DNA from: a virus
IMG/VR virus record: IMGVR_UViG_3300037483_001334
Reading direction: 5' to 3' (one strand)
Length of the DNA: 64,000 nt
How positions within the stretch are numbered: position 1 is the stretch's first letter; every line of letters starts with the position of its first letter. The notes beneath the pieces are model-generated. The model was not told the DNA's origin, searched no databases, and saw only the letters and a list, made by a program, of their open reading frames with translations. The translations under genes were made by a program, and so were the position numbers. This document shows, piece after piece, positions 31,332 through 54,801 of this stretch.

Positions 31332-32276
31332 ATGAAGTTCGATATCGGAAAGCACACGGTTTACCTCGCGCGCCACGGCAGCCGCGCGTATGGCACGAGC
31401 ACGCCCGAGTCCGATCTGGACATCAAGGGCTTCGCAGTCGCGCCGAAGTTGTACACGCTGGGCTTCGCGCACAAGTTCGAGCAGTACGAGGAGCACGGTG
31501 CAGACAGCCCCGAGGGGCCACTCGATTCTGTCGTGTACGACATCCGGAAGTTCTGCCGACTGGCGGCGGACTGCAATCCGAACATCATCGAGGTGCTGTT
31601 CATCGATGACTCGGACGTGCTGACGCTGCATCCAGCTGGGAAGCTGGTGCGCGACAACCGCGAGGCGTTCCTGTCGAAGAAGGCGCGCATCACGTTCAGC
31701 GGGTACGCCGTCAGCCAGCTGAAGCGCATCAAGACGCATCGCGGGTACCTGCTCAACCCGCCTACACACAAGCCGACGCGCGAGGAGTTCGGGCTGGCGG
31801 TCGACATGAAGATCACCGCCGACATGATGGGCGCGTTCGACAAGGTCACCGCTGGCGGAGAAGCTGTCGATCCGAACGTGATGGAGCTGGTGGCGCGCGA
31901 GAAGCGCTACAAGGCGGCGCTCGAACGGTGGAACCAGCACGAGAGCTGGAAGGCGAATCGGAACGAGAAGCGTGCGGCACTGGAAGCGGAACATTCATAC
32001 GATTCGAAGCACGCTGGACACCTCGTTCGGCTCTTGCGGATGTGTCGTGAGATCCTCACGGGCAAAGGAGTGATCGTGCGTCGGCCTGACGCGGCCGAGC
32101 TACTCGCCATCCGCAACGGCGAGTGGTCGTACGAGAAGCTCATCGAGTGGGCCGAGCGCGAGGACGGCGAGATGCGGGCGCTGTACGACGCGTCGACGCT
32201 GCCGGACGAACCGGACATGGGGAAGCTGAACGCGATCTGCGTCGAGGCGCAGGAGCGCTTCTGGAGGATGTCGTGA
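31332..32276 (+). CDS. nucleotidyltransferase (Pol-beta fold) with helical C-terminal domain
   Basis: ARHGSRAYGTSTPESDLDIKGF (hG[GS]x9-13Dh[DE]h motif). Confidence 0.5.
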   Translation: MKFDIGKHTVYLARHGSRAYGTSTPESDLDIKGFAVAPKLYTLGFAHKFEQYEEHGADSPEGPLDSVVYDIRKFCRLAADCNPNIIEVLFIDDSDVLTLHPAGKLVRDNREAFLSKKARITFSGYAVSQLKRIKTHRGYLLNPPTHKPTREEFGLAVDMKITADMMGAFDKVTAGGEAVDPNVMELVAREKRYKAALERWNQHESWKANRNEKRAALEAEHSYDSKHAGHLVRLLRMCREILTGKGVIVRRPDAAELLAIRNGEWSYEKLIEWAEREDGEMRALYDASTLPDEPDMGKLNAICVEAQERFWRMS

Positions 32277-35673: not shown

Positions 35674-35799
35674 TGAACGGTTCTCGGAGCGTGCGCGCTT
35701 AGCCGAGAGCTGGTCTTTGCCGAGTAAGCTAATCAAGAGAAAGCACTGGTCTGAAAAGCCAGGGAGCTGGGGGCAGTACCCAGACTCGGCATGATGATT
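35674..35799 (+). other. structured non-coding segment (nested hairpins; 7-bp long-range stem GCCGAGT...ACTCGGC)
   Basis: tctcgg...ccgaga hairpin, ctggg-ggcagta-cccag hairpin. Confidence 0.3.
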
Positions 35800-36459: not shown

Positions 36460-36532
36460 CGTCGCATAGCTCAGCTAGAAGAGCGCCTGCTCGACATGCA
36501 GGAGGTCCCGGGGGCAGTTCCCGGTGCGACGA
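36460..36532 (+). tRNA. tRNA-Val(GAC) with non-canonical T-loop (GGCAGTT) and C33
   Basis: Perfect acceptor CGTCGCA/TGCGACG; D-arm GCTC-AGCTAGAA-GAGC. Confidence 0.55.
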
Positions 36533-37169: not shown

Positions 37170-37314
37170 GGTCGACGATGGTACGGGACGCCTTCAGGGC
37201 GTGCAACGGGCTCGTGGTGAAGCGGGATCACACGACCATGGCATGGTCGGTTCGCCAGTTCGATTCTGGCCGAGTCCACTTGTAGCTCATGTAGGAGTGC
37301 GCTACGTTCGTCGC

Positions 37315-37818
37315 ATGAGTGAAAAACGAACGGTGACGGCCAGGTACATCACAAAGGGCGAGCCGTACGTTCGTGTAAAACTGTCGGACAAAACCGTGAT
37401 GCGTGAGCATCGGTTTGTCATGGAAGAAGAGCTTGGGCGCAGGCTTGATTCTAGCGAACACGTCCATCACAAGGACGAAAACAAGCGTCGCAACGATCCC
37501 GGCAACCTAGATCTGACGACCCTGTCTGACCACAGCAAGCATCACGCGCCGCACGCACCGATGGTGCGATTGAGATGCCGTGTTTGCGGAACCGAGTTCG
37601 AGCGCAAAGACCGATACGTCAGATCGAAGAGAAAAACAGGCGCATCGACGCTCTACTGTAGCAACGCGTGCTCACGTCGCGGCACGTCGGCAGCCCGTGG
37701 CATCGTCCACGGAACGAGCATGGCGTACAACCAGAACGGGTGCCGCTGCGAGACGTGCAAGGAGTACAAGCGGCAGCAGAACGCTGCGGCGAAGAAGAGA
37801 CGAGAGTCTGCGGCATAG
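37315..37818 (+). CDS. HNH homing endonuclease
   Basis: EHVHHKDENKRRNDPGNLDLTTLSDHSKHH; C-terminal Cys-rich region. Confidence 0.75.
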   Translation: MSEKRTVTARYITKGEPYVRVKLSDKTVMREHRFVMEEELGRRLDSSEHVHHKDENKRRNDPGNLDLTTLSDHSKHHAPHAPMVRLRCRVCGTEFERKDRYVRSKRKTGASTLYCSNACSRRGTSAARGIVHGTSMAYNQNGCRCETCKEYKRQQNAAAKKRRESAA

Positions 37819-37880
37819 GCCCTAGGGTAGGGCACGTGGTTGCCATCCACGACTTAGCGGGTTCGATCCCCGCATGCCGC
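37810..37880 (+). tRNA. tRNA-Gly(GCC), U73
   Basis: loop TTGCCAT; T-arm GCGGG-TTCGATC-CCCGC; overlaps the HNH gene stop by 9 nt. Confidence 0.8.
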
Positions 37881-37887
37881 TTCATGC

Positions 37888-37960
37888 GGGCCCATAGCTC
37901 AGCCAGGAGAGCGCCTGTTTTGCACGCAGGAGGTCACCGGAGCGAAGCCGGTTGGGTCCA
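37888..37960 (+). tRNA. tRNA-Ala(TGC) with non-canonical T-loop AGCGAAG
   Basis: G3:U70; loop TTTGCAC. Confidence 0.65.
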
Positions 37961-37988
37961 GTGACGTCGGATGTGCATATAGGCTATC

Positions 37989-38492
37989 GTGTCCCGAGCA
38001 AATACCACAGAACGATTTGCCATGACAGCAGAGCAGCTGGCCTGGCTGGCCGGGCTCCTTGAGGGCGAAGGCTCCTTCATGAAGGGCCCACCGTCGAAGC
38101 CCGGAGCGCCATGCGTGGCCGTGTCGATGACCGACCGAGACGTTGTTGAACGTGCTGCGGCATTGATGGGAGTGTCTTGCCAGGGCCCCTACCTCCGCAA
38201 GAACCTGAAAGTGTGGAAGCCGTACTACATGGCGACGGTACGCGGGTATCCTGCCGCCGATCTGATGAAGCTCTTGCGAGATCACATGGGAGCAAGGAGG
38301 AGGGCTCAGATCGACGCGGCCATGGCAACGTTCAGCGTGAAGCATCGTCAGAAGATCCAAAAGTCGCGTGTCTTGGAGATCAAGGTCATGCTGGCGGAAG
38401 GCCGCGGAGACCGTGAGGTGGCCCGCCATTTCAGGTGTGCTCATAGCTTGATCGGACGCATCAGGAGAGGAGAGTCGTACGCACAGGTCTAG
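37989..38492 (+). CDS. single-motif LAGLIDADG homing endonuclease with C-terminal HTH-like tail
   Basis: LAWLAGLLEGEGSF. Confidence 0.8.
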   Translation: MSRANTTERFAMTAEQLAWLAGLLEGEGSFMKGPPSKPGAPCVAVSMTDRDVVERAAALMGVSCQGPYLRKNLKVWKPYYMATVRGYPAADLMKLLRDHMGARRRAQIDAAMATFSVKHRQKIQKSRVLEIKVMLAEGRGDREVARHFRCAHSLIGRIRRGESYAQV

Positions 38493-38499
38493 AGTTTCT

Positions 38500-38570
38500 G
38501 CCCACGCAGCACGAAGGTCGTGCCACTCCCTCGTAGCGAGTAGGTTGGGGTTCGATTCCCCACGTGGGCT
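38500..38570 (+). tRNA. tRNA-Thr(CGT)
   Basis: acceptor GCCCACG/CGTGGGC; loop CTCGTAG; C·C at 31·39. Confidence 0.6.
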
Positions 38571-38573
38571 TCT

Positions 38574-38644
38574 GCCGGCGAAGCATCAAGGGATGCAGCA
38601 CCCCTGTAAGGTGAAAGCGGCGAGTTCGATTCTCGCAGCCGGCT
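38574..38644 (+). tRNA. tRNA-Thr(TGT)-like, copy A (C33)
   Basis: D-arm GCAT-CAAGGG-ATGC, loop CCTGTAA, T-arm GCGAG-TTCGATT-CTCGC; identical ~80-nt copy at 39158-39238. Confidence 0.55.
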
Positions 38645-38703
38645 ACTGGTTGACAATGGAACGACCGAGATGAGAGACTTCGGGCTCTCAAAGGAGCCCG
38701 CAC

Positions 38704-39096
38704 ATGAGCAACACGAGCATCATCATCGAGCACGGAACGTCGGACGCCGAGATCGTCGCAGGTGGCAGCTACATCAGCGAGGTGCAGGTACTGTCCGGGG
38801 TTCACTACACGCGCGTCGGCGACCGCGTCAGCTTCTCCGTGAAGCTGAGGCTGCTGTGGGCAGATGCGGGCGGTGGAAACTTGCAGATTCCGCTGCCGGT
38901 TCCGACCGGCAACGCCGAGAACGCGAAGTTGGTCGCCGTCTGCGTGATCGACGGCGGTCCTGGGTACGGCTTCGTCAGCGAAACGCAGTGCGCCGGCTCG
39001 CCGCCGTATCTGTACGTGGCGTTGGTCGCAGATGCGGGCGTGACCGAGACGACGCTGGCGATTCACGCCGACTATCTCGTCGTCGCGAGTGAGTAG
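38704..39096 (+). CDS. hypothetical protein (130 aa) inserted between duplicated tRNA sequences
   Basis: ORF with RBS aaaggag; flanked by direct repeats. Confidence 0.4.
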   Translation: MSNTSIIIEHGTSDAEIVAGGSYISEVQVLSGVHYTRVGDRVSFSVKLRLLWADAGGGNLQIPLPVPTGNAENAKLVAVCVIDGGPGYGFVSETQCAGSPPYLYVALVADAGVTETTLAIHADYLVVASE

Positions 39097-39167
39097 AGGT
39101 TCCTGCCGCCAAGGTGGAGACAGCGACACGCATCCCCGTTGGAGTTCGATTCTCCCCGTGGGCTTCT

Positions 39168-39238
39168 GCCGGCGAAGCATCAAGGGATGCAGCACCCCTG
39201 TAAGGTGAAAGCGGCGAGTTCGATTCTCGCAGCCGGCT
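39168..39238 (+). tRNA. tRNA-Thr(TGT)-like, copy B
   Basis: identical to copy A; preceded by a partial T-arm/acceptor remnant (39139-39165). Confidence 0.55.
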
Positions 39239-39363
39239 TGTGCTAGTGCCGCCAAAGCCTAGACAGCGAGGTTCCCGCTTGACCCCGCTACCAGCAGCCG
39301 GCAGTGCCAATAACCATCGCGTTTGGCGTTTGACGCATCAAGCACCCCCGTGCGACGCTGCGT

Positions 39364-40062
39364 TTGATGAATAGAAGTGAGGCCGGTCGGCGTGGGTGGG
39401 AGGCCAGTAGCAAAAAGCTGCGAGCCCAGTTGGACGCCAGGGTTGCTGCTGCCAAGGAGAAAGTGGCCGCAAAGGCTTGTCGCCATTGTGGTGTGCCAAT
39501 CCCGTATGAGCGAAGGCGCCACGAGTGTTGCAGTCATAAGTGTGCGTCGGAGCTGAGGTTTCCATCTGCCGGCCGTGTCGTACGCGTTTGCTTTTGCGGA
39601 AATAGAATCACGGGTAAGGACGCTGCGGCGAAGCAGGCCTGTTCGCGAAAATGCTCTCATGAGCAAAAGCATGCCGAGTACATCGTACGCTGGCTGAACG
39701 GTGACGAAGTTGGCGGCGGTTGGGACGCTGTTTCGGAACACGTCAGAAGGTGGTTGATCGAAAAATACGGCGAACAGTGCAGCCAGTGTGGTTGGGCATG
39801 TAGGCATGCGAAGACCGGACGGGTGCCGATACAGGTTGATCATGTTGACGGCGATCCGTATAATCACCGACCTGAGAACCTGCGGCTTCTGTGTCCGAAC
39901 TGCCATTCGCTGACGGATACATACGGCGGCCTGAACTCTGGCCGAGGTCGCAAAGAGCGCGGCGTCAAACGTGCTGTTCTCGCCTTCAAAGCTCAAGAAG
40001 AAGAGCGTCTGCTTGGTATGCAGGAGGTTGCCGGTGCAATGCCGGTTGAAGGCTCTGGCTAG
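39364..40062 (+). CDS. HNH homing endonuclease
   Basis: IQVDHVDGDPYNHRPENLRLLCPNCHSLT. Confidence 0.75.
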   Translation: MMNRSEAGRRGWEASSKKLRAQLDARVAAAKEKVAAKACRHCGVPIPYERRRHECCSHKCASELRFPSAGRVVRVCFCGNRITGKDAAAKQACSRKCSHEQKHAEYIVRWLNGDEVGGGWDAVSEHVRRWLIEKYGEQCSQCGWACRHAKTGRVPIQVDHVDGDPYNHRPENLRLLCPNCHSLTDTYGGLNSGRGRKERGVKRAVLAFKAQEEERLLGMQEVAGAMPVEGSG

Positions 40063-40063
40063 C

Positions 40064-40134
40064 GCGATCGTGGTCAAGTGGCTTGGCCTTGGGCTTCCAA
40101 CCCAATGACGCGTGTTCGATTCACGCCGATCGCT
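40064..40134 (+). tRNA. tRNA-Gly(TCC), U73
   Basis: acceptor GCGATCG/CGATCGC; loop CTTCCAA; T-arm GCGTG-TTCGATT-CACGC. Confidence 0.8.
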
Positions 40135-40206
40135 TCTCGGGCCGATGTTGTTGGTTACCGCAAATGGAGCCGTTGGTGTAGGTTCGATTCCTGCCGCCCT
40201 GCTGTC
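40135..40206 (+). other. tRNA-like segment with canonical T-arm (GTAGG-TTCGATT-CCTGC) but no resolvable acceptor
   Basis: manual folding failed; needs tRNAscan/ARAGORN. Confidence 0.25.
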
Positions 40207-40210
40207 TATG

Positions 40211-40235
40211 TAGGGTGTAGTTCAATGGTAGAACG
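40211..40235 (+). pseudogene. truncated tRNA 5' fragment (acceptor + D-arm TAGTTCAATGGTAGAAC only)
   Basis: no anticodon/T-arm/3' acceptor downstream. Confidence 0.3.
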
Positions 40236-40263
40236 ACGTTAAATCTCCGACGACGCCCCTTGT

Positions 40264-40333
40264 CCGAGAATCTGGAGCGGTCCTTCTGGGAAGGCCGACG
40301 ATTGCAACCCGTCGAGAGGTCTGTTCGATCCAG
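40264..40333 (+). tRNA. tRNA-Cys(GCA)-like, U73, short D-arm, A·C at 31·39
   Basis: acceptor GGAGCGG/CCGCTCC; loop TTGCAAC; T-arm GTCTG-TTCGATC-CAGAC. Confidence 0.4.
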
Positions 40334-40339
40334 ACCCGC

Positions 40340-40405
40340 TCCTTTCTGGCCGAAGTGGAACGGTTATCGTCTCGTAAACGAGAGGCCCAGGTTCGAGCCC
40401 TGGTC
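40340..40405 (+). other. tRNA-like segment (T-arm CCAGG-TTCGAGC-CCTGG; possible TAA anticodon region) not resolved
   Basis: manual folding ambiguous. Confidence 0.25.
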
Positions 40406-40412
40406 ATCGCCG

Positions 40413-40438
40413 AAAGGTGGTGGTAGCTTAGTGGAAGA
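40413..40438 (+). pseudogene. truncated tRNA 5' fragment (GTGGTGG-TA-GCTT-AGTGGAA-GAGC-G) lacking a 3' half
   Basis: tRNA-Arg starts 37 nt downstream, leaving no room for the rest. Confidence 0.3.
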
Positions 40439-40474
40439 GCGCTAAACACCGGGCTGCATCCCTTGCCAGATATT

Positions 40475-40548
40475 GCTGCGGAGGCCGCAGAGGAAGCGGC
40501 GCCCGTTTTCTAAACGGGAACTTGAGGGTTCGACTCCTTCCCGCAGCG
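40475..40548 (+). tRNA. tRNA-Arg(TCT)
   Basis: acceptor GCTGCGG/CCGCAGC; stem CCCGT/ACGGG, loop TTTCTAA. Confidence 0.8.
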
Positions 40549-40555
40549 TGGTTCT

Positions 40556-46117: not shown

Positions 46118-46789
46118 TCGTAGAGATTCGAGCTGGCGAAGGTGGCGCAGACGCCAAGGACTTGGTCCGCGAGCAGTTCGGCGTGTACGCCCGGCTGATG
46201 GAGCGGAGGGGTCTTTGACTTCGCTCTCGTAGATGAGCGCAGCGGCTTCCTCTCGTTCCAAGCGAGCGGCAAGGGAGCGCGTGAGACGTTCTCGCGAGAG
46301 TCAGGAGGGCACCGATGGCAGCGCGTGCCGCCCTCTGAGAAGCGTGGCCGCGTTCAGACATCGACGGTGACCGTTGCGGTGCTGGAAGAGCCGAAGGCGG
46401 CTGCGGTTCAGATCGAAGAGCGCGACGTCGAGTGGTCGACGTGCCGTGGCTCTGGTGCCGGAGGTCAGCATCGGAACGTCACCAACAGCGCGGTGCAGAT
46501 GGTGCACCTCCCGACCGGGCTTCGAGTGCGCGTCGAGAACGAGCGCTCGCAGCATGCGAACCGTGAGATCGCCCTGAGGATCTTGCGCGCGCGCATCCAC
46601 GAGCAGCGCGAGACCGCGAGCACGGCGGCACGGTCAGACAGTCGCCGGCAGCAAGTCGGCAGCGGTGAGCGCGCGGACAAGGTGCGGACGATCCGCGCAC
46701 AGGACGGACAGGTAACCGATCACCGATCCGGACAGCAAATCCGATACAAGGACTACGTCCGAGGAAACTGGGACGGCTTGTTCAGATAA
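46105..46789 (+). CDS. truncated class-I peptide chain release factor (RF1-like domains 2-4 with GGQ; tripeptide-motif position reads PPS) requiring a +1 programmed frameshift at CUU UGA C (46213-46219)
   Basis: Frame 0 (46105-46218) gives MESVIVEIRAGEGGADAKDLVREQFGVYARLMERRGL*. The +1 frame from 46217 continues the homology (ESGGHRWQRVPPSEKRGRVQTSTVTVAVLEE...GSGAGGQHRN...GQVTDHR) to 46789. GGAGG lies 3 nt upstream of CTT, as in prfB. Confidence 0.7.
46205..46219 (+). promoter_or_regulatory. prfB-type +1 frameshift element: internal Shine–Dalgarno GGAGG, 3-nt spacer, CUU UGA C
   Basis: cggaGGAGGggtCTTTGAC. Confidence 0.65.
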
Positions 46790-46876
46790 CGCTTGCACAG
46801 CGTTTCGCAGCATGCGACAGTCTTTTCCCGGTCGGTCAGCCGTTCGCAAGGACGGCTGGCCACCGGGTGCGCCTCT

Positions 46877-46960
46877 GGAGGGTGAAGCTACACGGCGTAG
46901 CGCGGGCCTTGAAAACCCGGTCTGTGGTAACCCCACGGGGTTCGAATCCTCCGCCCTCCG
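46877..46960 (+). tRNA. tRNA-Ser(TGA), type II, G73
   Basis: loop CTTGAAA; long variable arm TGTGG-TAACC-CCACG; C·A at 31·39. Confidence 0.6.
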
Positions 46961-47077: not shown

Positions 47078-47191
47078 TGTGCTGCACACCGGGTAGGCTC
47101 TAGTAGGCCTGTGCCGGTCGGTAGTAGGCGGCGTGCTAGCGCTGTGTACTGTCTGGGTCATACGGTTCGATTCCCCGTGCAGCCACCTTTT
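47078..47191 (+). ncRNA. YrlA-like RNA candidate (Ro60-associated tRNA mimic): terminal 7-bp stem GCTGCAC/GTGCAGC enclosing a tRNA-like T-arm, then CCACCTTTTCC
   Basis: T-loop GGTTCGATTCC but no tRNA acceptor; repeated GTAGTAGGC motifs; immediately upstream of the Ro60 gene. Confidence 0.35.
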
Positions 47192-47234
47192 CCCTGACAG
47201 CTGGGTTGTCGGGTTGTTCGTCTGGGAGGTTCCG

Positions 47235-48941
47235 ATGTCTGACTATGCTGCGCATCTGGGCGATGCGAAGAAGAAGGCTGTTTCTGTCCGCGAGGACGCT
47301 CCGCAGTCGGCCAAGGCCGACGCGCGTCAGGTCAAGAACGCGGCCGGCGGCTTCGCGTTCGAGGTCGACGACTGGAAGCGTCTCGATCGGTTCCTCATCC
47401 TGGGAGCCGAGGGCGGCACGTTCCATGTGGGCGAGCAGAAGCTCGTGCGCGAGGGCGCGGGTGCACTGGAGCGCTGCCTGAAGGACGACGCGAGCGCGGC
47501 GATCGAGCACATCGCGGCGATCAGCGAGTCGGGCCGCGCGCCGAAGAACGATCCTGCGATCTTCGCACTCGCCGTCGCAGCGTCACACGCAGACCCGGTC
47601 GTGCGGCGCCTCGCACTGGCTGCGCTCCCGCGCGTCTGCCGGATCGGCACGCACATCTTCCAGTTCGCGGAGCAGGTCCAGCAGCTTCGCGGCTGGGGCG
47701 CTGGCCTCCGGCGTGCGGTCGGCGCGTGGTACACGAGCAAGGAGGGTGGCGACCTTGCCTACCAGCTGGTGAAGTACCAGCAGCGCGGCGGTGTGTCGCA
47801 TCGCGATCTGCTCCGACTGTCGCACCCGAAGTCGAAGGATCCGATCGTGCAGGCTATCCTGCGGTGGACCATCGCGGGCTCGTCGGGCCTCGGCGAGCGC
47901 AGCGTCAAGCGCAAGCAGCAGGAGGCGGGCGTCTCGTACGAGGCGGTCGCGGCTGGCGCGCTGCCGAAGGTCATCGAGGGCTTCGAGCGCGTGAAGCTCG
48001 CAACGACGCCCGAGGAGTGTGCCGCTCTCGTGCGCGAGTACAACCTCACGCACGAGATGGTGCCGTCTGAGCAGCAGAAGCACGCCGTCGTCTGGGACGC
48101 GCTCCTTCAGCGCATGCCGATGCACGCGATGGTGCGGAACCTGGGCCGGATGACGGCGAACGGCCTGCTCGTTCCGGGCTCGGACGCGGCGAAGCACGTC
48201 GTGAAGCAGCTGAAGAACGAGGCGGCGATCAAGAAGTCGCGAATGCACCCGCTCGCGGTACTGATGGCACTTCGCACATACGCGTCGGGCCATGGCGAGA
48301 AGGGCAAGCTGACCTGGACGGCCGTGAAGCCGATCATCGACGCACTCGATGACGCGTTCTATGCTGCGTTCGAGACCGTCGAGCCCACGGGCAAGAGCAT
48401 CATGCTCGCGCTCGACGTGTCGGGCTCGATGGCTGGCAGCCAGGTTGCCGGCACGTCGTTGACCGCGCGCGAGGCCGTTGCCTGCATGGCGATGGTCACG
48501 GCTCGTCGCGAGCCGGACTACGACCTCGTGGGCTTCACGGCGGGCGGCTCCGGCTATGGCGGCCGCTGGGGCGGCTCGGCGTCGGGTCTCTCTCCCGTCG
48601 CGATCACGGCGAAGACGGCGCTGTCGGACGCGTGCAAGATCATGGAGCGCATGTCCATGGGCGGCACCGACTGTGCGCTTCCCATGCTTCACGCGCTCGG
48701 CAAGAAGCAGAAGGTTGAGGCCTTTTGCGTCTACACCGACAACGAGACCTGGGCGGGCGCCGTGCACCCGTTCAAGGCGATCAAGCAGTATCGTGAGCAG
48801 ATGGGCATCCCCGCGAAGCTCGTCGTCGTCGGCACGGAAGCGTCGCCGTTCACCATTGCCGATCCGTCGGACGCCGGCATGCTTGATGTCGTCGGCTTCG
48901 ACTCCGGCGCCCCCGCAGTCATCGCGGACTTCATCCGCTGA
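47235..48941 (+). CDS. rsr: Ro60 (Ro sixty-related, Rsr) orthologue: TROVE domain + C-terminal vWA/MIDAS
   Basis: Long helical-repeat N-terminal region; DVSGSM MIDAS motif; RBS GGGAGG 6 nt upstream. Confidence 0.75.
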   Translation: MSDYAAHLGDAKKKAVSVREDAPQSAKADARQVKNAAGGFAFEVDDWKRLDRFLILGAEGGTFHVGEQKLVREGAGALERCLKDDASAAIEHIAAISESGRAPKNDPAIFALAVAASHADPVVRRLALAALPRVCRIGTHIFQFAEQVQQLRGWGAGLRRAVGAWYTSKEGGDLAYQLVKYQQRGGVSHRDLLRLSHPKSKDPIVQAILRWTIAGSSGLGERSVKRKQQEAGVSYEAVAAGALPKVIEGFERVKLATTPEECAALVREYNLTHEMVPSEQQKHAVVWDALLQRMPMHAMVRNLGRMTANGLLVPGSDAAKHVVKQLKNEAAIKKSRMHPLAVLMALRTYASGHGEKGKLTWTAVKPIIDALDDAFYAAFETVEPTGKSIMLALDVSGSMAGSQVAGTSLTAREAVACMAMVTARREPDYDLVGFTAGGSGYGGRWGGSASGLSPVAITAKTALSDACKIMERMSMGGTDCALPMLHALGKKQKVEAFCVYTDNETWAGAVHPFKAIKQYREQMGIPAKLVVVGTEASPFTIADPSDAGMLDVVGFDSGAPAVIADFIR

Positions 48942-48949
48942 GTTCACCC

Positions 48950-49020
48950 GGCTCGGGCCGAAGTTCGACGGTTATCGGTTAAATCACCGTCGGATACCAC
49001 CTTGCCCGAGCCATCTTTTC
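48950..49020 (+). ncRNA. Y-RNA-like RNA 1
   Basis: 5' GGCTCGGGC-CGAAG ... CCACC-TTG-CCCGAGCC 3' plus a U-tract; resembles the conserved Ro-binding helix (GGCUGGUCCGAAG / CUUGACUAGCC) with a bulged purine. Confidence 0.5.
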
Positions 49021-49152: not shown

Positions 49153-49245
49153 CGACCGAGCCGACGTCTACGGGTTATCATCCAACAACCGGGCCTAAAC
49201 CCGGCAACAATGCCCCGTTGGCAATACCTTGCTCGGTCTTTTCTC
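49153..49245 (+). ncRNA. Y-RNA-like RNA 3
   Basis: 5' CGACCGAG-CCGACG ... CCTTG-CTCGGTC-TTTTCT 3'. Confidence 0.45.
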
Positions 49246-54000: not shown

Positions 54001-54801
54001 TCACGGCTTCTCTCCGAGCGTTGCCAACTTCAGGCGCAATCGGAAGATCTCGTTCAGCAGGTCGCGTGTGGTCGACTGCATCTTGCCGGGACGCCGCGAG
54101 ATCCACGCGCGTAGTTCCGCCTCCCACTCCGGCGTTACGGGCCGCATCGGGTCGCGCGACACGTCGTCGTACGGCGGCATGAAGTCTTCACGCTCGGCAA
54201 GCGCGTTCATGAACATCACGCCCTGCTCGTGCGCGTCGTCCTGTGCCCTGTGCGTGTGCTTCAGGCTCTTGTCGAACCAGCGCGGCGGGAAGTTTCGCTT
54301 CGACGACTCGGCGAAGCCGGTTCCGAGTAGCGCCATCGCGAAGGTCTTGACGTCGAGCGCCGAGAAGCTGAACGGCGACGTTCCCGTGAAGGCGATCAGG
54401 TACCAGTACACGAACGTGAAGTCGTAGCCGGATGGGTAGCAGACGGCGATGGGCTTGCCGGGCAGGCAATCGAGCCAAGCGACGAACGCGTGCATCGCCT
54501 TGTCGGGATGCTGCACGTTCGTCTGGCATTCCTTCCATGCTTCAGGCTGCGTCGCCCACCATTTCATCGTGTCTGGGTCGGACGTGGCGCCCTGGAGCAG
54601 CTGGAAGTTGGCGCTGAAGGTCGATATGGGCTTCGTGCGGTCTGGGCTGCGCGGGTCGAACGCAGCTGCGCCGAGCGACAGCATCGAGTTCTTGCCCGGG
54701 ATCGGCCCGTCGGACTCGACATCGATCGAGACGTAGATCTCAGGCCTCTGCTTGTGCTTCTTGCTCACACGGCTCTCTTCTCGCGCATCATGGCGCGCCA
54801 C
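54001..54801 (-). CDS. DEDDh-family 3'-5' exonuclease (DnaQ-like fold)
   Basis: Exo [11 protein letters not shown]; Exo III HRAQDDA. Confidence 0.6.

What the first reader, a model, noticed from the sequence alone, without database searches (positions are those of the whole stretch)
38500..39300. 130-aa ORF flanked by perfect 80-nt tRNA duplications: footprint of an insertion/duplication event
tRNA-Thr(TGT) plus the last ~20 nt of the upstream tRNA-Thr(CGT) is duplicated. The two copies, 38564-38644 and 39158-39238, are identical over 80 nt and lie 595 bp apart on either side of ORF 38704-39096. Short related repeats (tgccgccaa(g/a)g...agacagcga) flank copy B. The pattern suggests integration of a small mobile cassette into a tRNA gene with target duplication.
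Basis: seen in the sequence. Interest (0 to 1): 0.6.

Follow-up and report, generated by a model that had tools for sequence, protein, structure and literature searches.

The report
Partial tRNA-block duplication around accessory phage gene
In a phage tRNA gene array full of homing-endonuclease genes, a stretch running from the middle of one threonine tRNA gene into the start of a third was copied by sloppy recombination. This left two identical tRNA-Thr(UGU) genes and a dead chimeric tRNA scar around a small accessory gene: an ordinary kind of phage genome scar, not the footprint of a self-inserting cassette.

Summary
The repeat is real. 38544-38644 and 39138-39238 match at 98/101 nt, with 82 nt exact and an offset of 594. 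Each copy holds the last 27 nt of tRNA-Thr(CGU), a TCT spacer and a whole non-canonical tRNA-Thr(UGU).

ORF 38704-39096 is a real gene. It has a coding-type GC3, an AAGGAG ribosome-binding site and five distant homologues. A confident model shows a viral fibre-head (knob) fold.

Two syntenic relatives (L012, L047) carry the compact order Thr(CGU)-Thr(UGU)-...-Thr(GGU). They lack the ORF, the duplication and the three flanking homing-endonuclease genes, so these are lineage-specific additions.

The true repeated unit is therefore [Thr-CGU nt 45-71][TCT][Thr-UGU][spacer][Thr-GGU nt 1-~33]. The ORF sits inside copy 1, exactly in the Thr(UGU)|Thr(GGU) spacer. A dead chimeric junction (39105-39164) joins the anticodon region of Thr-GGU to nt 45 of Thr-CGU.

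Best reading: illegitimate or unequal recombination, probably stimulated by homing endonucleases, in a mosaic tRNA array. The ORF is a separate accessory insertion. It is not a target-site duplication made by an integrating cassette. Known kind of event, low to moderate interest.

The parts
37989..38492 (+). LAGLIDADG-like homing endonuclease gene, inserted between tRNA-Ala(UGC) and tRNA-Thr(CGU). Absent at this spot in L012 and L047.
   Evidence: LAGLLEGEGSF motif. phrog_5046 E=2.7e-17. Pfam LAGLIDADG_3 is weak, E=0.003, below cut-off. GC3 is 0.71, below resident genes. The relatives have a 3-6 nt spacer here.
38500..38570 (+). Intact tRNA-Thr(CGU) ('C'). Its last 27 nt (38544-38570) open repeat copy A.
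   Evidence: ARAGORN; Rfam tRNA 40.3 bits; cloverleaf.
38544..38644 (+). Repeat copy A (101 nt): Thr-CGU nt 45-71, TCT, and the whole tRNA-Thr(UGU).
38574..38644 (+). tRNA-Thr(UGU), copy A ('T'). Non-canonical: C33, and G·A mismatches at the ends of the acceptor and anticodon stems.
   Evidence: Rfam 35 bits against GA 29. Missed by ARAGORN. Cloverleaf -30.2 kcal/mol. 54/71 identical to L047 Thr(UGU), with three fully compensatory pair changes.
38645..38703 (+). 59-nt leader of the ORF. It starts right after the tRNA discriminator base. AAGGAG at 38691-38696 sits 7 nt before the ATG and lies partly inside a hairpin.
   Evidence: Sequence. Hairpin z=-2.5. Homologous to the leader of the L001 homologue, with 1 of 1000 shuffles reaching the observed score.
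38704..39096 (+). ORF130: a real accessory gene encoding a stand-alone viral fibre-head (knob)-like beta-barrel protein.
39105..39137 (+). g5'a: 5' fragment (about nt 1-33: acceptor 5' strand, D arm, 5' strand of the anticodon stem) of a tRNA-Thr(GGU) gene.
   Evidence: 25/32 identical, without gaps, to L012 2060-2131, which is a Thr-GGU cloverleaf. The 21-mer hits only here and at 39248 in the 64-kb window, with 0.2 hits expected by chance.
39138..39164 (+). c3': orphan 3' fragment (nt 45-71) of a tRNA-Thr(CGU) gene. Together with g5'a it forms a dead chimeric pseudo-tRNA, and this is the duplication junction.
   Evidence: 24/27 identical to 38544-38570, with one compensatory T-stem pair (G:C to A:T). 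No tRNA call. The chimera folds no better than shuffled sequence, z=-0.08.
39168..39238 (+). tRNA-Thr(UGU), copy B, identical to copy A.
39248..39283 (+). g5'b: a second 5' fragment of a tRNA-Thr(GGU) gene, 8-9 nt after copy B, as in the ancestral spacing. It is decayed beyond about nt 22-35.
   Evidence: 21/22 identical to the 5' end of L060 9080-9151, which Rfam scores as tRNA at 44 bits with anticodon GGU. 17/21 identical to L012.
39364..40062 (+). HNH homing endonuclease gene between g5'b and the intact Thr(GGU). Its 3' end reads through that tRNA gene.
   Evidence: Pfam HNH_3 E=4.3e-07. phrog_1271 E=3e-23. GC3 is 0.575. Homologues sit inside the tRNA arrays of Enterococcus phage iF6 and Streptomyces phage PumpkinSpice.
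39982..40054 (+). Intact tRNA-Thr(GGU) ('G''), a different allele from g5'a and g5'b.
   Evidence: Rfam tRNA 48.6 bits. Cloverleaf with anticodon loop UUGGUAU. About 20-24 matches in 38 alignment columns to the two fragments.

Best explanation
The ancestral array read Ala(UGC)-Thr(CGU)-Thr(UGU)-Thr(GGU)-Gly(UCC), with spacers of a few nucleotides. I write C, T and G for the three Thr genes.

In this phage lineage two things happened.

(1) An accessory gene, ORF130, arrived in the T|G spacer together with its own 59-nt leader. It encodes a fibre-head-like beta-barrel protein. It most likely came in by recombination through the flanking tRNA genes, which act as portable homology.

(2) One illegitimate recombination joined the anticodon region (about nt 33-35) of a G gene to nt 45 of a C gene. 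The likeliest form is an unequal crossover between an ORF-carrying and an ORF-less genome, or between sister copies, possibly at a (G)TTGG microhomology. It was plausibly triggered by a double-strand break made by one of the adjacent homing endonucleases.

The result is C - T(A) - leader - ORF130 - [G 1-33 | C 45-71] - TCT - T(B) - G fragment - HNH - G'.

The consequences are two identical tRNA-Thr(UGU) genes and one dead chimeric pseudo-tRNA. The ORF is bracketed by tRNAs, so it can be co-transcribed with the array and cut out of the precursor by tRNA processing.

Shown: the anatomy, the identity of every fragment, the absence of all of this in relatives, and that the ORF is real with a fibre-head fold. 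Inferred: the order of events, endonuclease involvement, the microhomology, the mode of expression, and any benefit from double tRNA dosage.
For: - Repeat anatomy.
- Relatives L012 (Ro60 70% aa identity; DNA 70-93% identical over the aligned stretches) and L047 (60%) have C, T and the next tRNA 2-4 nt apart. They have no ORF130, no second T, and no LAGLIDADG or HNH genes there.
- The short repeats are 5' ends of Thr(GGU) genes. The repeat unit therefore spans three tRNA genes, and the ORF interrupts copy 1 exactly between T and g5'a.
- The second copy keeps the ORF-less spacing: T, 8-9 nt, then G.
- The three mismatches all lie in the first 19 of 101 nt (P=0.006) and include a compensatory T-stem pair. 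g5'a and g5'b differ at 4 of 23 positions. This fits two diverged parental alleles, or decay of the fragments with T conserved.
- The array is strongly mosaic: per-tRNA identities among the three genomes range from 53 to 99%.
- Three homing-endonuclease genes flank the locus, and homologues of the HNH gene live in other phages' tRNA arrays.
- Precedent: the SegB endonuclease sits in the T4 tRNA cluster (PMC2330249). It drives tandem amplification of a 718-bp tRNA-Tyr+segB unit through microhomology (PMC13096335).
- ORF130 has resident-like GC3 (0.85 against 0.57-0.71 for the endonuclease genes). A homologue with a homologous leader sits between Thr(CGU) and Thr(UGU) in L001.
Against: - No relative closer than about 70-75% nucleotide identity was found, so neither the order of events nor the parental genomes can be reconstructed.
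- The exact 82-nt identity next to 11-17% divergence in the flanking fragments needs an extra assumption: identical T alleles in both parents, selection on both copies, or gene conversion.
- The microhomology at the junction is inferred from relatives' anticodon loops and is not seen in an intact parental G allele.
- Nothing shows that any of the three endonucleases cuts in or near these tRNA genes.
- The contig is a metagenome assembly, and the reads could not be inspected.
Confidence: 0.65

Rival explanations
1. A small mobile cassette (ORF130 plus an attachment site made of tRNA sequence) integrated, Campbell-style, into the tRNA-Thr(CGU)/Thr(UGU) genes, either by a site-specific recombinase or by homologous recombination of a 594-bp circle. 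This duplicated the 101-nt target as attL and attR.
For: The topology is compatible: a complete tRNA on the left, a 3' fragment on the right, and direct repeats bracketing the insert. The insert is absent from relatives. An ORF130 homologue with a homologous leader lies at a different Thr-tRNA junction in L001, so the ORF and its leader do move as a unit.
Against: The supposed element would have to carry an illegitimate Thr-GGU(1-33)|Thr-CGU(45-71) junction, so it could itself only come from a prior illegitimate event in such an array. There is no recombinase in the 594 bp, and none among the window proteins scanned. There are no inverted repeats at the ends. The repeat covers parts of three tRNA genes rather than the 3' end of one. 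L001 shows no flanking duplication.
Confidence: 0.12
2. An older tandem duplication of the whole three-gene block (C-T-G)(C-T-G). A later deletion then removed the 3' part of the first G and the 5' part of the second C, and gene conversion or purifying selection kept the two T copies identical. ORF130 and the HNH gene came in afterwards.
For: The end structure is the same. The fragments have diverged (c3' 3/27, g5' 4/23) while T is 71/71, as expected if only T stayed under selection. Adjacent same-anticodon duplicates occur in other phage arrays, for example two tRNA-Leu(UAG) in PumpkinSpice.
Against: It needs at least one more event than a single illegitimate crossover. The non-functional 8 nt of c3' and the TCT spacer next to T are also perfectly identical, which selection on T alone does not explain. 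Neither relative has such a block duplication.
Confidence: 0.15
3. Assembly artefact. Two co-occurring strains, one with ORF130 and one without, were threaded into a single chimeric contig through the shared tRNA sequence.
For: The window comes from a JGI metagenome contig. The shared exact segment is only 82 nt, shorter than typical read length and the largest k-mers.
Against: Every junction must physically exist in some molecule, including the odd g5'a|c3' join. The two copies differ at three positions and in both flanks in a coherent way. Nothing else in the array is repeated.
Confidence: 0.05

Closest known systems
Segmental amplification in T-even phage tRNA clusters driven by the homing endonuclease SegB (T6 tRNA-Tyr+segB 718-bp tandem unit; PMC13096335). 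SegB is also a free-standing homing endonuclease in the T4 tRNA cluster (PMC2330249).
   Same: A phage tRNA array with free-standing homing endonuclease genes. A head-to-tail duplicated segment of a few hundred bp contains a full-length tRNA gene plus a neighbouring ORF. The junction lies inside or next to tRNA sequence, possibly at a microhomology. The outcome is extra copies of one tRNA.
   Different: The endonucleases here are HNH and LAGLIDADG-like, not GIY-YIG SegB. There are only about 1.2 copies, and the second copy lacks the ORF. The endonuclease gene is outside the repeated unit. No selection pressure or nuclease dependence is known. This is a fixed scar in a wild genome, not a laboratory escape mutant.
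Integrative elements and prophages that insert into the 3' end of a tRNA gene and restore it (attL/attR direct repeats).
   Same: A direct repeat of tRNA 3' sequence brackets an inserted segment. The left copy is an intact tRNA and the right copy begins with a 3' fragment. The insert is absent from relatives.
   Different: There is no integrase. The repeat is 101 nt, extends over a second whole tRNA and, beyond the ORF, into a third. The inserted segment is 0.5 kb with one non-enzymatic gene. The host is itself a lytic-type phage tRNA array.
Mosaic phage tRNA arrays interspersed with HNH endonucleases and small ORFs, such as Streptomyces phage PumpkinSpice and Enterococcus phage iF6 (survey in PMC6409571).
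   Same: tRNA genes are separated by a few nt. HNH genes and small hypothetical ORFs sit between tRNAs. An HNH ORF's 3' end overlaps the downstream tRNA. Same-anticodon duplicates occur.
   Different: Here the duplication junction is preserved as a recognisable chimeric pseudo-tRNA, which allows the breakpoints to be mapped.
Receptor-binding head/knob domains of viral fibres: reovirus sigma1/sigmaC, adenovirus fibre, R-type pyocin fibre, and the receptor-binding protein heads of Listeria phage PSA and lactococcal phages.

Membership tests
tRNA (Rfam RF00005), for the duplicated Thr(UGU) gene | Covariance-model score above the curated gathering threshold | tested here: met
   35 bits against GA 29 for both copies. 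ARAGORN does not call them.
tRNA (Rfam RF00005), for the duplicated Thr(UGU) gene | Cloverleaf kept by compensatory changes in an orthologue | tested here: met
   Against L047 706-776: 54/71 identical, with three pairs changed on both sides and still paired.
tRNA (Rfam RF00005), for the duplicated Thr(UGU) gene | Canonical U33 and fully paired stems | tested here: not met
   The anticodon loop is CCUGUAA (C33). There are G·A mismatches at the last acceptor pair and the first anticodon-stem pair. Function cannot be judged from sequence.
Integrase-mediated insertion into a tRNA gene (attL/attR) | Tyrosine or serine recombinase encoded by the element or nearby | tested here: not met
   The 594-bp interval holds only ORF130, which has a fibre-head fold. 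No recombinase family was found among about 28 window proteins scanned. The window was not scanned exhaustively.
Integrase-mediated insertion into a tRNA gene (attL/attR) | Direct repeat limited to the 3' part of the target tRNA | tested here: not met
   The repeat is 27 nt of Thr-CGU, a spacer and all of Thr-UGU. Beyond the ORF in copy 1 it continues into 23-33 nt of Thr-GGU.
Integrase-mediated insertion into a tRNA gene (attL/attR) | Empty site in relatives | tested here: met
   L012 and L047 have C and T adjacent and no insert.
Transposon or insertion-sequence insertion | Short target-site duplication and terminal inverted repeats, with a transposase | tested here: not met
   The repeat is 101 nt. 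No inverted repeats lie at the insert ends. There is no transposase.
Homing-endonuclease-driven segmental amplification (SegB type) | Free-standing homing endonuclease gene at the locus | tested here: met
   HNH at 39364-40062 and about 37315-37818, and LAGLIDADG-like at 37989-38492. None is GIY-YIG.
Homing-endonuclease-driven segmental amplification (SegB type) | Head-to-tail repeat unit containing a full-length tRNA | tested here: inconclusive
   There is one full unit (594 nt with the ORF, about 143 nt without) plus a partial second unit that lacks the ORF. Copy number in the population is unknown.
Homing-endonuclease-driven segmental amplification (SegB type) | Microhomology at the repeat junction | tested here: inconclusive
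   Thr-CGU nt 45-49 read GTTGG. Thr-GGU anticodon loops in G', L060 and L012 read yTTGGTA or CTGGTA. The parental allele of g5'a is not available.
Homing-endonuclease-driven segmental amplification (SegB type) | Dependence on nuclease activity and on recombination proteins | not testable with these tools
   Needs phage genetics.
Viral fibre head / receptor-binding knob domains, for ORF130 | Fold match to solved head domains | tested here: met
Viral fibre head / receptor-binding knob domains, for ORF130 | Attachment to a fibre shaft, trimerisation, receptor binding | not tested
   No shaft or anchor is present in the 130 aa. No multimer prediction was run. Genomic context is a tail-like neighbourhood only for P0006, which sits next to a Gly_rich_2 protein.

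The most novel reading that the evidence does not exclude
The duplication is not a neutral scar. It would be a naturally fixed product of endonuclease-driven segmental amplification that doubles the dose of a phage tRNA-Thr(UGU), and perhaps of ORF130, to counter a tRNA-targeting host defence. The surrounding genome region carries other RNA-repair and translation-related genes (Ro60, Y-RNA-like candidates, RlaP, an ArfB-like RF-1 domain protein). In addition, ORF130 plus its leader would be a recurrent cargo that homes to the 3' ends of Thr tRNA genes in different phage arrays.
Probability: 0.12. Interest if true: 0.6.

Novelty: new member of a known kind. Interest (0 to 1): 0.28.

Why it matters
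The locus is a cleanly readable natural example of how phage tRNA arrays are remodelled. tRNA genes act as recombination substrates, homing endonucleases crowd the spacers, accessory genes are dropped between tRNAs, and illegitimate joins leave chimeric pseudo-tRNAs that map the breakpoints.

It gives a wild-genome counterpart to the SegB-driven tRNA amplification recently shown in the laboratory. It also defines a small, previously unnamed family of stand-alone fibre-head-like proteins.

It does not reveal a new mobility mechanism.

Tried and rejected
- Near-identical DNA in GenBank phages: none. The distant search hit only single tRNAs.
- ORF130 against phages by tblastn, and against Pfam and PHROGs: nothing.
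- Word-indexed protein search: found only the query itself. The exhaustive HMMER search was needed to find homologues.
- Looking up the source contig by exact protein: not on record.
- Exact tRNA-Thr(UGU) 40-mer and the c3'(B) 24-mer in viral contigs: no hits.
- ORF-family scans of viral and metagenome contigs: no confirmed loci.
- The degenerate Thr-GGU 5' motif in viral contigs gave 13 loci. Twelve held no ARAGORN-called tRNA and were not examined further (probably chance). Only L060 was informative.
- I tested whether g5'a plus c3' could be a functional tRNA or a structured RNA. There is no Rfam or ARAGORN call, and it folds no better than shuffled sequence.
- I tested whether the region 5' of copy B retains the 5' half of Thr(CGU). 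It shows no similarity.
- The trailer of the ORF against the L001 trailer: not significant.
- A sigma-70-like promoter for the ORF: none on the + strand in the leader.
- A possible third fragment, GCAGCCGGC at 39294-39302, equals the 3' end of Thr-UGU. It is too short to be significant: 5 occurrences in the window against 2.2 expected.
- The single-sequence AF2 model was poor (pLDDT 57) and was replaced.
Full report

Yes. The repeat finder and a fixed-offset comparison show that 38544-38644 and 39138-39238 are 98/101 identical, 594 nt apart. A self-blastn of the whole tRNA array gives E=1.5e-45. The only other intra-array repeat is a 23-nt match between two Leu tRNAs.

The mismatches are at 38549, 38559 and 38562, and 38563-38644 (82 nt) is exact. 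All three mismatches fall in the first 19 nt. That would happen by chance with P=0.006 if they were spread evenly.

Each copy contains nt 45-71 of tRNA-Thr(CGU), the spacer TCT and a 71-nt tRNA-Thr(UGU). The complete Thr(CGU) gene is at 38500-38570 (ARAGORN; Rfam 40 bits).

ARAGORN misses both Thr(UGU) copies. The Rfam tRNA model scores them at 35 bits against a gathering score of 29, and they fold into a cloverleaf. The tRNA is odd: it has C33 and two terminal G·A mismatches. Compared with its orthologue in relative L047 it is 54/71 identical, and three stem pairs are changed on both sides yet still paired. It therefore belongs to a functional tRNA lineage.

The short repeats at 39104-39126 and 39247-39269 are also real: 19/23 identical, 2 matches against 0.01 expected.

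**2. The ORF**

ORF 38704-39096 has GC by codon position of 0.62/0.46/0.85. This is the pattern of the resident genes of this 64% GC genome (GC3 0.83-0.91). The three neighbouring endonuclease genes have GC3 of only 0.57-0.71.

An AAGGAG lies 7 nt upstream of the ATG.

Pfam, PHROGs, tblastn against GenBank phages and the word-indexed protein search found nothing beyond the protein itself. An exhaustive HMMER scan of 1.84 billion representatives found five small homologues of 125-222 aa, with E from 1e-24 to 8e-08.

With that alignment AlphaFold gives a confident all-beta model (pLDDT 88, pTM 0.82). Its best structural neighbours are the head or knob domains of viral attachment fibres:
- reovirus sigma1, adenovirus fibre heads, and phage receptor-binding-protein heads

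BFVD matches with TM 0.70-0.77 are to much larger phage and giant-virus proteins, two of them named collagen-like and the rest uncharacterised. The aligned region within the targets is not reported.

So the ORF is a real gene. It encodes a stand-alone binding-module-like domain, not a recombinase or nuclease. Its biological role is unknown. One homologue lies next to a glycine-rich, tail-fibre-type gene. Another may be fused to a weak HTH.

**3. Surroundings**

The window is a phage-like contig with at least 35 tRNA genes between 34.8 and 49.8 kb. It also encodes:
- a Ro60 orthologue (TROVE plus vWA_Ro60)
- an RF-1-domain (ArfB-like) protein
- RlaP
- an Rv2179c-like exoribonuclease
- a fourth HNH gene

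Immediately around the finding lie three homing-endonuclease genes:
- an HNH gene at about 37315-37818
- a LAGLIDADG-like gene at 37989-38492
- an HNH gene at 39364-40062, whose 3' end reads through tRNA-Thr(GGU) 39982-40054

Homologues of the last HNH sit inside the tRNA arrays of Enterococcus phage iF6 and Streptomyces phage PumpkinSpice. In PumpkinSpice the ORF likewise overlaps the downstream tRNA.

**4. Relatives without the insertion**

Using the Ro60 protein as an anchor, the metagenome scan returned two syntenic loci that cover this part of the array.
- L012 (Ro60 70% identical) reads Ala(GGC)-Gly(GCC)-Ala(UGC)-Thr(CGU)-Thr(UGU)-Gly(CCC)-[Thr(GGU)-like]-Gly(UCC)-Cys.
- L047, from a 259-kb contig (Ro60 60% identical), reads Ala(GGC)-Gly(GCC)-Ala(UGC)-Thr(CGU)-Thr(UGU)-Thr(GGU)-Gly(UCC)-Cys.

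Within the stretch from Ala(UGC) to the Thr(GGU)-type gene, spacers are 2-6 nt.

Neither locus has ORF130, a second Thr(UGU), or any of the three endonuclease genes. It shows that everything between 38645 and 39981 is lineage-specific.

The arrays are also strongly mosaic. Position by position, identities between the three genomes swing between 53% and 99%. For example, Ala-UGC is 99% identical between the window and L012, while Thr-UGU is 57%, and Thr-UGU is 75% between the window and L047.

**5. What the short repeats are**

In L012 the stretch 2060-2131 folds as a Thr(GGU) cloverleaf. It begins GCCGCCAAAGTAGAGATAGCG.

This 21-mer, allowing up to 5 mismatches, matches only 39105 and 39248 in the whole 64-kb window, where 0.2 matches are expected by chance. 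39105-39136 matches the first 32 nt of the L012 gene at 25/32 without gaps.

An independent phage contig, L060, has a tRNA-Thr(GGU) that Rfam scores at 44 bits. Its first 22 nt are 21/22 identical to 39248-39269.

I call them g5'a (about nt 1-33) and g5'b (nt 1-22, decaying to about nt 35). They are a different allele from the intact Thr(GGU) at 39982-40054.

**6. Anatomy and mechanism**

Writing C, T and G for the CGU, UGU and GGU threonine genes, the locus reads:

C - TCT - T(A) - [59-nt leader - ORF130 - 7-8 nt] - G(1-33) | C(45-71) - TCT - T(B) - 8-9 nt - G(1-~35, decayed) - HNH - G'

The repeated unit is C(45-71)-TCT-T-spacer-G(1-33). Without the ORF it is about 143 nt, which is exactly the spacing of the two G fragments. 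With the ORF it is 594 nt.

The ORF with its leader sits in copy 1, precisely where the T|G spacer should be. Copy 2 keeps the ORF-less spacing.

The join G(1-33)|C(45-71) at 39137|39138 is an illegitimate junction. The 60-nt chimera is not called as a tRNA and folds no better than shuffled sequence.

Whatever the exact path, two separate events are needed: arrival of the ORF in the T|G spacer, and creation of the G|C junction.

The most economical path is one unequal or illegitimate crossover between an ORF-carrying genome (C-T-ORF-G) and an ORF-less one (C*-T-G*). This explains four things in one step:
- the single ORF
- the ORF-less second copy
- the compensatory T-stem difference in c3' (G:C against A:T), as expected of two functional alleles
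- the divergence between g5'a and g5'b

A 143-nt tandem duplication followed by ORF insertion into copy 1 is nearly as good. A full block duplication followed by a deletion is a third variant.

The junction may have used a (G)TTGG microhomology. C nt 45-49 read GTTGG, and Thr-GGU anticodon loops in G' and L060 read TTGGTA, with CTGGTA in L012. This is inference only.

The density of homing-endonuclease genes makes a nuclease-induced break a plausible trigger. So does the fact that both G fragments stop near the anticodon region. There is direct precedent: SegB sits in the T4 tRNA cluster (PMC2330249), and it drives tandem amplification of a 718-bp tRNA-Tyr+segB unit through microhomology and phage recombination functions (PMC13096335). 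Nuclease genes also mark recombination boundaries in other phages (PMC10448857).

**7. Is ORF130 mobile?**

Its closest homologue, P0003 (50% identical), lies on a 1.2-kb contig, L001. It sits between a partial tRNA-Thr(CGU) and a tRNA-Thr(UGU), followed by tRNA-Glu and an HNH gene. That is also the Thr block of a tRNA array, but one junction further upstream, and there is no visible flanking duplication.

The leaders of the two genes are homologous from the first base after the upstream tRNA (1 of 1000 shuffles reaches the observed score). The trailers are not.

The other homologues are not in tRNA arrays.

So the ORF plus its leader behaves as a movable accessory unit that ends up between tRNA genes. 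It most simply moves by recombination through flanking tRNA homology or by hitch-hiking with endonuclease-induced repair. Nothing suggests it moves by itself.

**8. Consequences (inferred)**

The phage now carries two identical tRNA-Thr(UGU) genes, so expression is probably doubled.

ORF130 has the same orientation as the array and no recognisable promoter of its own. It is probably transcribed with the tRNAs and released when the flanking tRNAs are processed.

The leader hairpin partly covers the ribosome-binding site.

**9. Verdict**

The locus is a lineage-specific, recombination-made partial duplication of a three-tRNA block in an endonuclease-rich, mosaic phage tRNA array, with an unrelated accessory gene lying inside the first copy. 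It is a new example of a known kind of event, not a new mobility mechanism.

The main caveats are the lack of close relatives, so the order of events is unresolved, and the fact that the metagenome assembly could not be checked.

Noticed in passing
window 47133-48941 (+); 40151-40269 (+); 48949-49012 and 49153-49238 (+); L012 2226-2345 and 2424-2554: A phage-encoded Ro60 orthologue (Pfam TROVE E=2e-45 plus vWA_Ro60 E=4.5e-59) lies inside the tRNA array. Weak Rfam YrlA (Y-RNA-like) hits of 32-36 bits (GA 69) fall between Gly(UCC), Cys and Arg(UCU) in both the window and L012. Two odd Rfam 'ceN72-3' hits (40.3 bits against GA 38, and 32.1) lie just downstream of the Ro60 stop codon. These may be phage Y-like RNAs.
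   Followed up: partly
window 46325-46789 (+), 31332-32276 (+), 54001-54801 (-): The genes flanking the array include an RF-1-domain (ArfB or peptidyl-tRNA-hydrolase-like) protein (E=1.4e-30), RlaP (an RNA-repair-pathway nucleotidyltransferase, E=8e-20) and an Rv2179c-like 3'-5' exoribonuclease. This points to an RNA-repair or translation-rescue island.
   Followed up: no
window 35719-35791, 36460-36532, 39982-40054, 46876-46960, 40347-40403: Rfam finds tRNA genes that ARAGORN misses, including a partial one at 40347-40403. Several tRNAs in this phage group have non-canonical T-loops (UGCAAUG or UGCGAGC instead of UUCGAAU): window Thr-GGU, L047 Thr-GGU, L012 Thr-GGU and L001 Thr-CGU.
   Followed up: partly
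window 39364-40062 versus 39982-40054; L071 1474-1977 versus 1963-2034: The HNH endonuclease ORF runs through the whole downstream tRNA-Thr(GGU) gene before reaching a stop. A homologue in Streptomyces phage PumpkinSpice likewise overlaps the next tRNA by 15 nt.
   Followed up: partly
window 37208-40549 versus L012 1597-2630 and L047 256-1352: The mosaicism is tRNA by tRNA. Syntenic tRNA genes are 53-99% identical in patterns that differ from gene to gene. Ala-UGC is 99% between the window and L012, Gly-UCC is 86% between the window and L047, and Cys is 90% between L012 and L047. This implies frequent exchange with breakpoints between tRNAs.
   Followed up: partly
L012 12480-12551 and L011 5168-5239; L014 18983-19137: ARAGORN reports a tRNA with a four-base anticodon (uugg) in L012 and L011, at the position where the window has tRNA-Gln(UUG). 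A more distant relative, L014, has two adjacent CUA-anticodon (amber-suppressor type, called 'Pyl') tRNAs.
   Followed up: no
window 39096-39103 and 39268-39275; 39294-39302: GAGGTTCC occurs just before g5'a and just after the conserved part of g5'b. GCAGCCGGC, the 3' end of Thr-UGU, recurs 56 nt after copy B. These may be traces of further, older fragment joins, but they are too short to evaluate.
   Followed up: partly
P0004 / L004 7809-8477: One ORF130 homologue is called as a 222-aa protein with a weak N-terminal HTH (HTH_31 E=5e-4, below cut-off). An internal Met at residue 91 could instead start a stand-alone domain, so the fusion is uncertain.
   Followed up: partly
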